Source: Mizuhopecten yessoensis (lineage: Eukaryota). From it: 63,629 bases of DNA. Position numbers and translations under genes: made by a program. This document shows, in pieces, positions 32,879 through 41,362 of this stretch (positions are counted from its first letter, which is position 1; each line of letters opens with the position of its first letter). Below the pieces are notes generated by a model. The model made no database searches. It worked only from the letters and a program-made list of their open reading frames with translations, and had not been told where the DNA came from. Location of the stretch: NCBI RefSeq assembly GCF_002113885.1, contig NW_018404512.1:1000242-1063870 (forward strand), written 5' to 3'.

Positions 32879-34850
32879 AGTAATTGTGTTTTATGGGTGC
32901 CTCCTCCACATTTTTTTTGGAGATTGACCTTGACCTTAAGGTGATGCAATAGTAACCTAGGTCAGATGATGTAATAGTGTGGAGGGATTAAAAGTGTGGA
33001 GGGAATGTGCAACACAATAGGAAATAATGTGTGGAAGAATTAATGTGTGGAAGGAATGTGCAACAATAGAAAAGAAGGTGTGGAGGGATTAGTGTGTGGA
33101 GGGATAATAGCACATGATATATGTGGAGGTAAAATGTTTTTAGCGATAATGCAATACACATCACTGTAAAGAATGTGTGGAGGGGATCGTGCAAGACTGA
33201 ACATGTCCACGGTGAGAGCGACATAGATTTATGAATAACCTTATACGTATGTGGAGGGTAGCCTTCTATATACAGTCCAGGAAGAAAGAATGTGTGGAGG
33301 GAAAATGCCAAATGATATGTGTGGAGGTAAAACACCTTTGTGTAGAGGGATGACGTAAGACCGAACATGTCCACGGTGAGGGTTTACGGAAAAAAAACGT
33401 GCGTTAATAACGTGAGAATCTAATTCTCCACTGGCAGCATGTAGCCATCAACGTTGCGGTTCCAGGAGACAAGGTACAGGTGGATATTGTACCAAATCAG
33501 ATATATAAACACACATTAGAAATACTCCATCAAAATAATTATTTTCTTAACCATTATGTTTTGAAATCAATCAGCCAAATAACAAGATTTAGGTAGAGGT
33601 ATTGAACCTTATTCTACACCTGTTTGATTAAAGCATAATTTGAATCTAAACAGGTCCAAGTTTCTTTCTTTCATTACATCGAAAACATACATTATTCAAA
33701 TCAGAAAATCTCAATTCTGTTCCTATCCTGAAATATTTAACGAAACATCTGATAGAAATAAGCAAACAAAAGTCTAATACAATGTTTATTCATACCATAG
33801 TAAGAACATTTTAATGACATGAGAGTAGGCCTCCGTGATTTTTAAGGTAATCATTGTGTTTTTTTGCTGTGTAGATATTACAAGGTACAACATTGCGATA
33901 ATGGGAAGCTGACCAAGGAGGTTGGTCGTACCACTGGCATGAAATAAGAACATGAACACATAATCGAATTAGTGAAGATATTAAAAGATCTCTGGAAAGA
34001 AAAACGACTCCCCTATGACGATTCACTGCTAGATTTGTTTATCGTGTTTAAAGAGCACATAGGCGTTGATATTTCTGGATAATTCACGATGAAAAATCAT
34101 ATCGAGGAGAAAGCCTATGTTTTGCAATACAATTTTTTTTTTAATTCAAAAGTCCAAACACACATCATTTTACGTTAAAATTTTAAAGTCGAGGGATAAC
34201 ATTTAAAAATATGTGGCCTTTCATACTAACAATAGGTGATGTAAAGATAGCGATGACTTACAATGAACTCGAAAGGTATCACAGGTGTCTAAACACCATA
34301 ACAAAGAGTCGACATTGGGTGTATATATAAGGAGACTACACAAATGGCTCAAGGGACTATTAATCGCATAGTCAACGACAAAGTCCCTCCGACAAACATA
34401 CCATACAGTGTATTGTTGTCTAGGTATTAAACTTATTTCCTTCAAGAAGATATGCTTGATATGTAAGAATGGGAGGAGGGATAACACGAAATTGGAGTGA
34501 ATAGTTTTACTTAGAAATGTGTTACCTTCTTTGGTATATATAGTCATTTAACAATGTCAGGTAATTAAGTTACCTGATCTTATACACAACAGCCACCATA
34601 CACCCACAGGTCACTACACAAGTCAATCCCCCACTAATCCAAATAACAAGATTAATACATTTTATATATATCAAACCTAGGATTTCCATCTCTACCTACA
34701 GTACTGATACATTATCAGTTCTTTAGAAGCGTCTACACTTAAACCTTCTCAGCCTGTCTGAGACAATTTCTCATTTTCGTCGTACAAGTCCAATCAAACG
34801 TTTGGAACCATTTCTTTTTAGATTTCATATAATATATAGACTTCAAGAGA
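32879..34850. repeat. Left inverted arm of the Polinton (about 1.97 kb)
   Basis: Reverse complement of 38378-41362 except a 1-kb block. Mirror ORFs: 32988..33374/40865..41284, 33811..34026/39223..39447, 34221..34547/38819..39004. TGTGGAGG subterminal repeats. Confidence 0.93.
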
Positions 34851-35690
34851 TATGTCCCAAACATATCGACAACAACCTGTGGGAGCGCGTTGCCACACCC
34901 AAACTTGTACCCACGTTAGAAAGCAAGACGAAATATATCTGTCATTATAGGAATTTACAGCTGTATTTGGAGTTGGGTATGAAAGTGAATAAGATTCACA
35001 GAGTTTTACAGTTTAGACAGCAGCCATGGTTAAAGAAATATATTGATTTTAACGGGGATAGAAAACAGTAAAATTAAACTAGTTCTCAACAAACCTGTGA
35101 ACGTGGGTCAGTGTATTTTGGATCTCTCTAACTGTATCATGTACGATTTCCACTACAACCACATGCTATCTTAATACGACAACATATGTCTGTTAATGAC
35201 TGACACCGACAGTTTGATGTATGAAATATCGGATGTTTAAGACCTATACGAAACACTACATGAAAACAAACAATCGAGTTATCCCACCAATCATCCAATC
35301 TATAACGTCACAAACAAAAAGACACCGGAAAAGTTTAAAGACGAATGAGGTGGGAAGATTTGGCAGGAATTTGTTGGACTTAGACCTAAAATGTATTCCT
35401 ATGCATACGAAAATAGCTCTGGCGGATCACAAAAATCGAAACAGATAGCAAAAGGTATCAATAGAAGTACCATCGTACACGACTTACGTCACGACATGTA
35501 TCTAGAATGTCTGTTTGGATCTAAAACCATTATGTGTGATATGATTTCCATCAGAAGTGACAGACATGACTTGCATGTATACATCATCAGAAAAGCCGGT
35601 CTCTGTAGTTTTGACGACAATCGCTACTTAAAACCAAATGGTGAAACGTTGACAAACGGTCATTACAGAATAAAAAATGATACACATTAA
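34851..35690 (+). pseudogene. Protein-primed B-family DNA polymerase (Polinton pPolB), C-terminal remnant
   Basis: [21 protein letters not shown]...[48 protein letters not shown] (TDTDS at 35199-35213); GKFKDE; EFVGLRPKMYSY; AKGI; FDDNRY. Motif B is deleted; frameshifts present. Confidence 0.92.
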
Positions 35691-38180: not shown

Positions 38181-38377
38181 TATTTGATGATTATGAAGTT
38201 CCATACATGTTTACAAATATTGTGTTGACGTTTTTTCTTGCAATAAAGACAGTGCAAGACTGGCAACTATTCCACTTGACTTGTGCAAAGCTATTATTTG
38301 AGTAAGATCATTTAAGGCATCTTGAAATCAGACAAATGGTGTAGGTTACTTTGTATAAAAAATTCAACTGAACTGGG

Positions 38378-41362
38378 TCTCTTGAAATCTATATATTATA
38401 TGAAATCAAAGAAGAAATTGTTCAAAACATTTGATTGGACTTGTACGACGAAAATGAGAAATTGTCTCAGACAGGCTGAGAAGGTTTAAGTGTAGACTCT
38501 TCTAGAGAACTGATAAGTTATCAGTACTGTAGGTAGAGATGGAAATCCTAGGTTTGACGTATATGTACTAATCTTGTTGTTTGGATTAGTGGGGGATTGA
38601 TTTGTGTAGTGATCTGTGGGTGTATGGTGGCTGTTGTGTATAGGATCAGGTAACTTAATTACTTGACATTGTTAAATGACTATATATACCAAAGAAGGTA
38701 ACACATTTCTAAGTAAAAAAATTCACTCCAATTTCGTGTTATCCCTCCTCTCATTCTTACATATCATGCCTATCTTCACGAAGGAAAGAGTTGTTTAATA
38801 CCTAGACAACAATATACTGTGTGGTATGTTTGTCAGAGGGATTTTGTCGTTGACTATGCGATTAATAGTCCCTTGTGCCATTTGTGTAGTCTCCATATAT
38901 ATGCACCCAATGTCGACTCTTTATTAGTGTGTTTAGACACCTATGAGACCTTACGAGTTCATTGTAAGTCATCGCTATCTTTACATCACCTACTGTTAGT
39001 ATGAAAGTCCACATATTGTTAAATAAAGACATTTCCTTCCAATCTGGTGTTATCCCTCGACATTAAAATTTTAACGTAAAATTATGTGTGTTTGGGCTTT
39101 TGAATTATAAAAATAATTGTATTGCAAAACATAGGCTTTCTCCTCGATATGATTGTTCATCGTGAATTATCCAAAAAACTCAACGCCTATGTGCTCTTTA
39201 AACACGATAAACAAATCAAGCAGTGAATCGGCATAGGGGAGTCGTTTTTCTTTCCAAAGATATTTTGATATCCTCACTAATTCGATTATGTGTTCATGTT
39301 CTTATTTCATGCCAGTGGTACGACCAACCTCCTCGGTCAGCTTCCCATTATCGCAATGGTGTACCTTGTAATATCTACACAGCAAACAACCACACGGATA
39401 CCTTAAAAATCGCGGAGGCGTACTCTCATGTCATTAAAATGTTCTGACTATGGAATGAATAGACATTGTACTAGACTTAGCCTTAGGCTATATTGTAATC
39501 TAGGAGTTTAGACATCTTTAGATTTTTTGTTTGACAAAGGTTATATTCAGTAGACTGGATCTATTGATGCTTTAATGAGGTATAACATATGTTGTTTATT
39601 TGAGGTAAAAGCTGAGTGAACACTATGTAATTAAATCAACTATCTATATATCAAAAGTTTTATTTTAAATCATTGCATAATGAATCCCATGAACTTATAT
39701 AATTAATCCACTATACTTGTGTTTTAAAGTTAAATTTTGAAACATTTTATGATAACTAAATGATAAAAAACTTTTTAGAACTCAACTTGGAATTTATTTA
39801 ATTTGGTTGGCCTATCTTTATTCCTTACACCAATTTGTTGCTTTTTATGTAAATTTCTAGTCGAATCATCAAAAAGTTTGTAAAGTTTTATTTCAAACCA
39901 TTTTATGTATATTGATGAAAACACTTTAACCATTCCACATCTTGGTTTTTACTTTTTGAAACTACTCGTTTTTGGAAAACATTCAACAGCTACCTCATCC
40001 TAGGCAATTCTTGTCGTGTATATATATATATTGTTTATTATAGTTTTTATATTTACTGGTGTGTACTAGTACAACTTGTTAAAGTTGAATTATGAAAGAA
40101 TATGACGTTTGATTGAATACACTGTAAAACGTTGTGAAAATAATACTGTTTGTATCTCATTATCCTATCCAATTACTATTCGCTTTGTTGATGAAACTTC
40201 AATCAAATCATCTTCGTTTCATTTCATCAGTGGTATGTGGTATGTGTCTGGTTACTAATGGCTAGGTTGTAGATTAAACTTAACATTTGATCATCTATTG
40301 ATGCTTGAGAAGAGTTGTTTAACCATGTATAATTCTTCTACATTGCATTTGCAATGTTTGACAAAATACTCAACATAAAAATATATATATGAAACGTTGT
40401 TATTGCTCAATCAGAATGATGTGTAATATTTTAATTTTGTTGATTAAATTGGTGAAAATTTATGTTATATTGTTTGCTTATTTCTATCAGATGTTTCGTT
40501 AAATATTTCAGGATCGGAACAGAATTGAGATTTTCAGATTTGAATAATGTATGTTTTCGATGTAATGAAAGAAAGAAACTTGGACCTGTTTAGATTCAAA
40601 TTATGCTTTAATCAAACAGGTGTAGTATAAGGTTCTATACCTCTACCTAAATCTTGTTATTTGGCTGATTGATTTCAAAACATAATGGTTAAGAAAATAA
40701 TTATTTTGATGGAGTATTTCTAATGTGTGTTTATATATCTGATTTGGTACAATATCCACCTGTACCTTGTCTCCTGGAACCGCAACGTTGATGGCTACAT
40801 GCTGCCAGTGGAGAATTAGATTCTCACGTTATTAACGCACGTTTTTTTTCCGTAAACCCTCACCGTGGACATGTTCGGTCTTACGTCATCCCTCTACACA
40901 AAGGTGTTTTACCTCCACACATATCATGTGGCATTTTCCCTCCACACATTCTTTCTTCCTGGACTATGTATAGAAGGCTACCCTCCACATGCGTATAAGG
41001 TTATTCATAAATCTATGTCGCTCTCACCGTGGACATGTTCAGTCTTGCACGATCCCCTCCACACATTCGTTACAGTGATGTGTATTGCATCATCGCTTAA
41101 AACATTTTACCTCCACATATATCATGTGCTATTATCCCTCCACAAACTAATCCCTCCATACATTCTTTCCTATTATGTTGCACATTCCCTCCACACATTA
41201 ATCCCTCCATACATTCTTTCCTATTGTGTTGCACATTCCCTCCAAACTAATTATCCCTCCACACTATTACATCATCTGACCTAGGTCACTATTGCATCAC
41301 CTTAAGGTCAAGGTCAACCTCCACAACAAATGTGGAGGAGTCACCCGTAAAACACCACTAAT
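38378..41362. repeat. Right inverted arm of the Polinton (about 2.98 kb; about 39479-40469 is absent from the left arm)
   Basis: Match to the left arm starts at tctcttgaaatctatatattata (38378), stops at about 39478 and resumes at about 40470. Confidence 0.92.

What the first reader, a model, noticed from the sequence alone, without database searches (positions are those of the whole stretch)
32879..41362. Copy-back-like defective Polinton: the left side is replaced by an inverted copy of the right end
Seen: AGTAGT-type termini, a 5/6-matching 6-bp TSD, inverted arms of about 2.0 and 3.0 kb, and a left arm that abuts the middle of PolB at 34850/34851. I found no integrase, ATPase, protease or capsid motifs. 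Known: Polintons are usually about 15-20 kb, have much shorter TIRs, make 6-bp TSDs and are thought to replicate as linear protein-primed DNA. Inference: a template switch or panhandle repair made a molecule with two right ends, analogous to viral copy-back defective genomes. The matching TSD suggests it was integrated as a unit by a helper in trans.
Basis: partly seen in the sequence, partly recalled or inferred. Interest (0 to 1): 0.7.

Follow-up and report, generated by a model that had tools for sequence, protein, structure and literature searches.

The report
Polinton with two right ends
A decayed virus-like transposon in an animal genome has lost its left half and carries a mirror copy of its own right end instead, likely made when the free replicating DNA folded back on itself just before insertion, though repair inside the chromosome remains possible.

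Summary
Real and not an assembly artefact. The 8,484-bp element has Polinton ends, a 5/6 target-site duplication (TSD) and arms of 1,972 and 2,985 bp. Both inner junctions and the left end recur in contigs of independent sequencing runs. Near-full-length relatives in the same genome (16-23 kb, perfect TSDs, inverted repeats under 0.8 kb) show that the left arm beyond about 33467 is normally single-copy right-end DNA. The two arms are sisters (99/98), and a 6-nt word shared at both parental breakpoints fits one fold-back priming event. Terminal repeats, arms and polymerase remnant give similar ages, mildly favouring fold-back on the free linear molecule followed by helper integration (0.55) over chromosomal repair after insertion (0.35). 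A later repair event homogenised 458 bp and deleted 991 bp. A second two-right-end element with a perfect TSD and two fold-backs that include host flank lie in the same genome. Each junction searched is single-copy, so no helper-driven amplification is shown. The same architecture is published for mariner transposons and AAV; five searches found none for Polintons. This scan noted palindromic Polintons before on other DNA (unchecked).

The parts
32873..32878 (+). Left copy of 6-bp target-site duplication (CTTCGT)
32879..33466 (+). Part of the left arm equivalent to the family's native terminal inverted repeat; begins AGTAAT; inner limit approximate, from relative C5531
33312..33769 (+). Tract homogenised with the right arm (4 mismatches in 458 bp; 33312-33602 identical); ends exactly at the 991-bp deletion
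33467..33769 (-). Inverted copy of normally single-copy right-end DNA (window 40772-40470)
33769..33770 (.). Blunt deletion junction: 991 bp (39479-40469 equivalent) missing from the left arm; unique in the genome search
   Evidence: contigs of 3 runs cross it with 30 letters on the short side
33770..34850 (-). Inverted copy of right-arm interior 38378-39478; sister to the right arm, 6.5% diverged
34850..34851 (.). Fold-back junction into the polymerase gene; both parental breakpoints sit at a shared 6-nt word, only partly kept at the junction itself
34851..35690 (+). [quoted passage not shown]
35691..38377 (.). Single-copy centre, collinear with the right part of full-length relatives; holds a 268-bp tandem repeat (37532-38117, degenerate units beyond)
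38378..41362 (+). Right arm: the element's original right end, 2,985 bp; ends ACTAAT
39479..40469 (+). Right-arm DNA without a partner in the left arm
41363..41368 (+). Right copy of target-site duplication (TTTCGT)

Best explanation
This is a dead Polinton whose left half is replaced by an inverted copy of its own right 3 kb, likely made by one fold-back priming event on a free, linear replicating copy that was then likely integrated by integrase from an intact copy in the same cell. Shown: two right ends, loss of the left-side genes, intramolecular origin, a shared 6-nt word at both parental breakpoints, similar age of terminal repeats and arms. Inferred: a strand begun at the right terminus stalled or broke in the polymerase gene; its 3' end paired with the complementary hexamer 3.5 kb back on itself and copied out to the terminus, giving a 2,985-nt stem, a 3,527-nt loop and an origin at each end. 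Inferred second step, much later and in the chromosome: a break in the left arm was repaired from the right arm, copying about 458 bp and losing 991 bp. The element is now an inert, single-copy fossil.
For: Relatives with perfect TSDs keep 33467-34850-like DNA once, at the right end. Arms are sisters, 99/98, with 11 changes private to both and 25 versus 24 private to each. Shared hexamer at both breakpoints, chance 0.014. Three clocks agree: terminal part 28/431 (6.5%), inner arms 70/1,074 (6.5%), and polymerase first and second codon positions 11/435 private changes (2.5%) against about 2.4% per arm. Third positions are higher (13/218, p=0.044), so part of this copy's divergence arose under selection before insertion. 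Likelihood ratio 3.5 for duplication at insertion over any time later. A second element, C76728:668006-673720, has two right ends, a perfect TSD, no duplicated flank and evenly 1.1% diverged arms. Snap-back genomes and strand switching are known for linear DNA replicons (PMC8235507, PMC5910420; passages).
Against: The TSD does not discriminate. The outermost 222 bp are 9.9% diverged against 6.5% inside (p=0.084), as expected if the left repeat is older than the duplication. The later tract and deletion show that chromosomal copying between arms works at this very locus. Two of the four fold-backs found (C942, C123) carry flanking non-element DNA in both arms and so arose in the chromosome. No second copy of either TSD-bearing junction among 40 of 101 and 40 of 73 candidates scored. 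The junction keeps only 2 of the 6 shared bases. Conversion between arms blurs the dating. Mariner elements, which have no free replicating stage, make the same architecture (PMC4161770, PMC4678618). C76728 was not confirmed in other runs.
Confidence: 0.55

Rival explanations
1. A full-length Polinton inserted first. Early in its residence a break in the polymerase gene was repaired by fold-back priming or by invasion of the opposite terminal repeat, copying the right 3 kb and deleting about 9 kb of the left half while keeping the original TSD.
For: Same-type event later at this locus. C942 and C123 are chromosomal fold-backs with 2-4 nt microhomology. Tip divergence 22/222 fits an older left repeat. 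Fold-back priming at breaks is shown in yeast (PMC10622511, abstract). End replacement occurs in mariner elements (PMC4161770, PMC4678618, passages).
Against: It must have happened within roughly the first third of residence (95% of posterior below 0.33 under my flat priors). It needs two joins and loss of about 9 kb. C76728 also shows a short stem (5 shared against 5 and 7 private changes in 1,356 sites).
Confidence: 0.35
2. Two different Polinton copies recombined, or lay head to head and lost their middles.
For: At 18 of 68 scored differing sites both states occur in other copies. This route was proposed for mariner Rpmar49 and Rpmar17 (PMC4678618).
Against: The arms are sisters with 11 changes private to both. 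One TSD brackets the whole element.
Confidence: 0.05
3. A parent subfamily had native 3-kb inverted repeats and this is a plain internal deletion.
For: Repeat length varies in this family by end copying: about 780 bp in C2257, and old 83%-identical left-end DNA at the right end of C3304. No left end was seen for the closest right-end relatives (C5570, C4788, C76746).
Against: No such parent among the hits. DNA like 33467-33769 occurs once per relative. Published repeats reach about 1.5 kb (PMC8097293, PMC10748475).
Confidence: 0.04
4. Assembly fold-back artefact.
For: The assembly is fragmented (82,659 contigs).
Against: Arms differ at 6.5% with symmetric private changes. The left end and the 34850/34851 junction are bridged with 0-2 differences in 4 of 4 runs from 4 studies.
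Confidence: 0.01

Closest known systems
Polinton/Maverick elements (PMC8097293 and PMC10748475, passages read; PMC6431247, passages read)
   Same: (AGT)2-type ends, 6-bp TSD, polymerase remnant. Relatives in this genome are 16-23 kb with integrase, adenovirus-like protease (weak hit), Walker A ATPase motif and PolB.
   Different: 8.5 kb, no integrase, ATPase or protease, arms of 2-3 kb against a published 46-1,447 bp (vertebrates) or 100-1,500 bp; both ends derive from the right end.
End-replacement mariner derivatives: Dromar7/11/28/36 MITEs (PMC4161770) and Rpmar49/Rpmar17 (PMC4678618); passages read
   Same: One end replaced by an inverted copy of the other, giving unusually long repeats and a non-autonomous element.
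   Different: Those are about 1 kb cut-and-paste elements and several amplified to many copies. This is a polymerase-encoding family and each junction searched is single-copy.
Copy-back and snap-back defective viral genomes: RNA viruses (PMC13506859), AAV asymmetric snapback genomes (PMC8235507), phi29 strand switching (PMC5910420); passages read
   Same: Topology: complementary arms from one end, a loop, one break-and-rejoin point, origins at both ends.
   Different: Here it is a chromosomal fossil. Formation during replication, helper-dependent amplification, packaging and interference are not shown.
Chromosomal fold-back inverted duplications (PMC10622511, abstract only)
   Same: Fold-back priming at short inverted homology, resolved through repeats.
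   Different: Here the duplicated arm stops exactly at the element terminus with no flank duplicated.

Membership tests
Polinton/Maverick (intact member) | (AGT)2 or (AG)3 end motifs | tested here: met
   One change at each end; intact in relatives
Polinton/Maverick (intact member) | 6-bp TSD | tested here: met
   5/6, chance 0.008; perfect at C2257, C5531, C3758 and C3304, C1520, C2356
Polinton/Maverick (intact member) | Protein-primed family B polymerase | tested here: inconclusive
   Only a broken 3' remnant; identified through relative C5531; no direct Pfam or PHROG hit
Polinton/Maverick (intact member) | Retroviral-type integrase, packaging ATPase, adenovirus-like protease | tested here: not met
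   Absent from the element; present in relatives (rve E=3e-13, Peptidase_C5 E=0.001, Walker A). Filed as a defective derivative, not an intact member
Polinton/Maverick (intact member) | Major and minor capsid genes | tested here: inconclusive
   No capsid frame was identified even in relatives; no left-side frame of C2257 hits the element
Polinton/Maverick (intact member) | 13-25 kb with terminal repeats of 0.1-1.5 kb | tested here: not met
   8.5 kb, arms 2.0 and 3.0 kb; met by relatives
Copy-back defective genome | Both ends derive from one end of the same molecule | tested here: met
Copy-back defective genome | Formed by a polymerase switch during viral replication | not testable with these tools
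   Only indirect timing, ratio 3.5, and microhomology
Copy-back defective genome | Amplified by a helper | tested here: not met
   No second junction among 40 of 101 candidates; junction contigs no deeper than the flank
Copy-back defective genome | Interferes with the parent virus | not testable with these tools
   No active element or assay
End-replacement non-autonomous transposon (mariner-type) | One end replaced by an inverted copy of the other | tested here: met
End-replacement non-autonomous transposon (mariner-type) | Several independent insertions share the breakpoint | tested here: not met

The most novel reading that the evidence does not exclude
Two-right-end Polintons with intact TSDs (this one and C76728) are a recurrent class of fossil copy-back defective genomes. 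They would be sequence-level footprints of free, linear, protein-primed replication and of integrase acting in trans in an animal Polinton, and the same end copying would explain why terminal repeat length varies so much in the family.
Probability: 0.5. Interest if true: 0.65.

Novelty: new variant of a known kind. Interest (0 to 1): 0.45.

Why it matters
Animal Polintons are known almost only from genome sequence (PMC10748475, passage), and their linear replication is inferred from adenovirus and phage analogues. If TSD-bounded fold-backs form on the free molecule, their junctions record replication errors and trans-integration, and a cross-genome catalogue could test this by computation alone. 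If they form in the chromosome, they are ordinary repair products, as in mariner elements, and mainly matter as a source of long inverted repeats that keep exchanging sequence. This copy is inert either way.

Tried and rejected
Pfam on 8 window frames gave nothing useful; PHROGs on 10 frames gave nothing. A 404-aa frame of C2257 had no significant PDB match, so the capsid gene stays unidentified; the ESM Atlas gave no result. Laying four runs on C76728 listed no piece across its terminus or junction; the table was cut (1,283 pieces not shown) and the region is repeat-rich, so this neither confirms nor refutes it. A slow mutation rate as the cause of the 458-bp tract: it is somewhat closer to C5570 (11/401) than the adjoining DNA (36/681), so rate may contribute, but it cannot give 4 mismatches, nor the lack of these four alleles in runs X1 and X2. 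C942 and C123 were first taken as further copy-backs and set aside because flanks are duplicated. C4969 has a partial inverted piece without termini and was not counted. Literature searches (listings only unless a paper is named as read) found no report of end-replaced or palindromic Polintons; the library lacks most subscription papers. Kapitonov and Jurka 2006, Esteban 1997 and Daniell 1978 were not held and are known to me only from reference lists or recall. No supplements were read. The word 'mollusc' was a guess; the host was not determined.
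Full report
Observation. The self comparison shows two inverted blocks, 32886-33769 against 41355-40470 and 33770-34850 against 39478-38378. The right arm has 991 bp (39479-40469) that the left lacks. The element spans 32879-41362 (8,484 bp): left arm 1,972 bp, centre 3,527 bp, right arm 2,985 bp. The ends are each one change from AGTAGT and the flanks match at 5 of 6 bases, with a chance of 0.008. 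The 1-kb flanks do not resemble each other.

It is real. Contigs of four runs from four studies (4 of the 14 listed) were laid on 32300-36300. The left flank and terminus are bridged in 4 of 4 runs and the 34850/34851 junction in 4 of 4, with 0-2 differences. The 33769/33770 junction is crossed in 3 of 4 with 30 letters on the short side, one short of the tool's threshold; the table was cut. An artefact would not give arms 6.5% apart with 25 and 24 private changes.

Family. The own genome holds many relatives (218 matches from 40 of 201 candidates). C2257 (17.0 kb), C5531 (23.4 kb) and C3758 (16.1 kb) begin and end in AGTAGT with perfect 6-bp TSDs. C2257 encodes an rve integrase with a weak chromodomain hit, an adenovirus-like protease (E=0.001) and a weak PolB hit; C5531 has a PolB hit at E=3e-7. 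All three have a Walker A motif. No capsid gene was identified. Their inverted repeats align over about 780, 451 and at least 192 bp. In C2257, C5531, C3758 and C1165 the DNA matching 33770-34850 occurs once, near the right end. DNA matching 33467-33769 lies just inside the right repeat of C5531 and C1165. Of 13 relative frames used as queries, only the two polymerase C-terminal ones hit the element.

Intramolecular origin. I aligned both inner arms with 18 other copies; shorter pieces listed (L039, L041, L043, L044, L045 and second fragments) were left out. The arms are sisters at 99/98, with end branches 0.033 and 0.035, a stem of 0.013, and 11 sites private to both. In four relatives the polymerase breakpoint lies at CCCAGT, and the right arm, read inward past 38378, continues with the same word; a shared word of 6 or more within 2 bases arises in 1.4% of random pairs. 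The window's junction keeps only the last two of these bases, so it was altered at or after joining. The geometry is that of one strand begun at the right terminus, folding back at this word and copying out to the terminus again.

Where did it happen? The TSD cannot tell, since a chromosomal replacement that starts inside the terminal repeat keeps it. Timing helps a little. The terminal 431 bp have 28 mismatches (6.5%) and the inner arms 70 in 1,074 (6.5%). Private changes in the polymerase remnant are 6/217, 5/218 and 13/218 at codon positions 1, 2 and 3, so neutral decay (2.5%) is close to each arm's private rate (about 2.4%), and the third-position excess (p=0.044) suggests the stem arose in an active lineage. 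A simple Poisson model with flat priors gives a ratio of 3.5 for duplication at insertion against any later time and puts 95% of the weight within the first third of residence. Against this, the outermost 222 bp alone are 9.9% diverged (p=0.084), and conversion may have lowered the rest.

A second, later event. 33312-33769 has 4 mismatches in 458 bp. For 33310-33769, p=8e-7 against the inner arms, and 0 of 100,000 shuffles gave so clean a window. The tract ends exactly at the blunt 991-bp deletion. All four left alleles are derived relative to C5570 and are missing from runs X1 and X2, where the tract collapses at 1.6 to 2.3 times flank depth. The simplest reading is abortive repair of a break in the left arm from the right arm. 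This shows that chromosomal copy-and-delete works here and is the main reason the rival keeps 0.35.

Recurrence. C76728:668006-673720 (5,715 bp) has two right ends of another subfamily, a perfect TSD, 23 mismatches in about 2,040 arm sites spread evenly, two larger indels and 3 nt of microhomology. Its junction is unique among 40 of 73 candidates and was not confirmed by other runs. C942 has two right ends but about 80-90 bp of the same flank in both arms and no TSD. C123 has arms over 4 kb at 99.8% that run on into unrelated DNA and may be partly an assembly effect. So 2 of 4 fold-backs found stop at the termini and 2 of 4 do not. This is not a census: about 80 stretches were fetched by following top hits. 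End copying in the other direction is also visible: C2257's repeat includes DNA that other copies keep only at the left, and C3304 carries 83%-identical left-end DNA at its right end.

Comparison. Published Maverick repeats are 46-1,447 bp in vertebrates (PMC8097293, passages) and 100-1,500 bp generally (PMC10748475, passages). Replacement of one end by the other is described for mariner elements, with origin called elusive or put down to abortive gap repair (PMC4161770, PMC4678618, passages). Snap-back genomes are described for AAV (PMC8235507), copy-back genomes for RNA viruses (PMC13506859) and strand switching for phi29 polymerase (PMC5910420). Fold-back priming at chromosome breaks is shown in yeast (PMC10622511, abstract). 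Five searches found no such report for Polintons. Two earlier AI notes of this scan describe palindromic Polintons in other genomes; I did not check them, and one supplied a paper to read.

Verdict. A genuine, old, single-copy Polinton derivative with two right ends, part of a small recurrent class in this genome. It works like a copy-back product but fails the amplification test for a defective interfering genome and is not an intact Polinton. Free-molecule origin 0.55, chromosomal repair 0.35. New variant of a known kind; interest 0.45.

Noticed in passing
G000:C76728:668006-673720 (L045:2507-8221): Second two-right-end Polinton, 5.7 kb, perfect TSD CTCTGT, arms 1.1% apart, inserted in a very abundant palindromic small element; not confirmed in four other runs.
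   Followed up: partly
G000:C942 about 1672436-1681330 (L073, L074): Fold-back with two right ends plus about 80-90 bp of duplicated flank; no TSD; likely chromosomal.
   Followed up: partly
G000:C123 about 1669480-1686500 (L050, L041, L051): Inverted duplication centred on Polinton DNA, inner 4.2 kb 99.8% identical, outer parts 92-98%, running into unrelated DNA; real or partly an assembly effect.
   Followed up: partly
G000:C2257:407230-424182 and C3304:23622-36403: Terminal repeats extended by copying left-end DNA onto the right end (about 780 bp at 99%; older pieces at 83%).
   Followed up: partly
G000:C2356:132892-135457; C5592, C1566 (L076), C4990 (L078): Short internally deleted Polinton derivatives of 2.3-7 kb; C2356 has a perfect TSD.
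   Followed up: no
G000:C5531 about 31940-37070 (L019): Insertion inside the polymerase gene with reverse transcriptase, RNase H and a weak tyrosine-recombinase hit (DIRS-like, my label), next to a GDSL lipase-like frame.
   Followed up: no
L012:6792-8702: Endonuclease VII and C2H2 zinc-finger frames upstream of or within the polymerase region of relatives.
   Followed up: no
L041:2945-3270 and L013:5077-5399: Decayed frame near element ends that looks by eye like a BIR (apoptosis inhibitor) domain; label recalled, not tested.
   Followed up: no
window 37308-38187: 268-bp tandem repeat whose copy number varies widely among relatives; the fold-back points of C76728, C123 and C942 lie in or beside it.
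   Followed up: partly
window 43327-44015: Frames that look by eye like a LINE reverse transcriptase fragment; Pfam gave no hit.
   Followed up: no
window 47612-49137: Direct duplication of about 615 bp (95%) containing a palindromic unit.
   Followed up: no
window 41696-41887, 16103-16555, 17924-19053, 23211-23599, 54422-54749, 62376-63629: Tandem duplications and minisatellite-like arrays.
   Followed up: no
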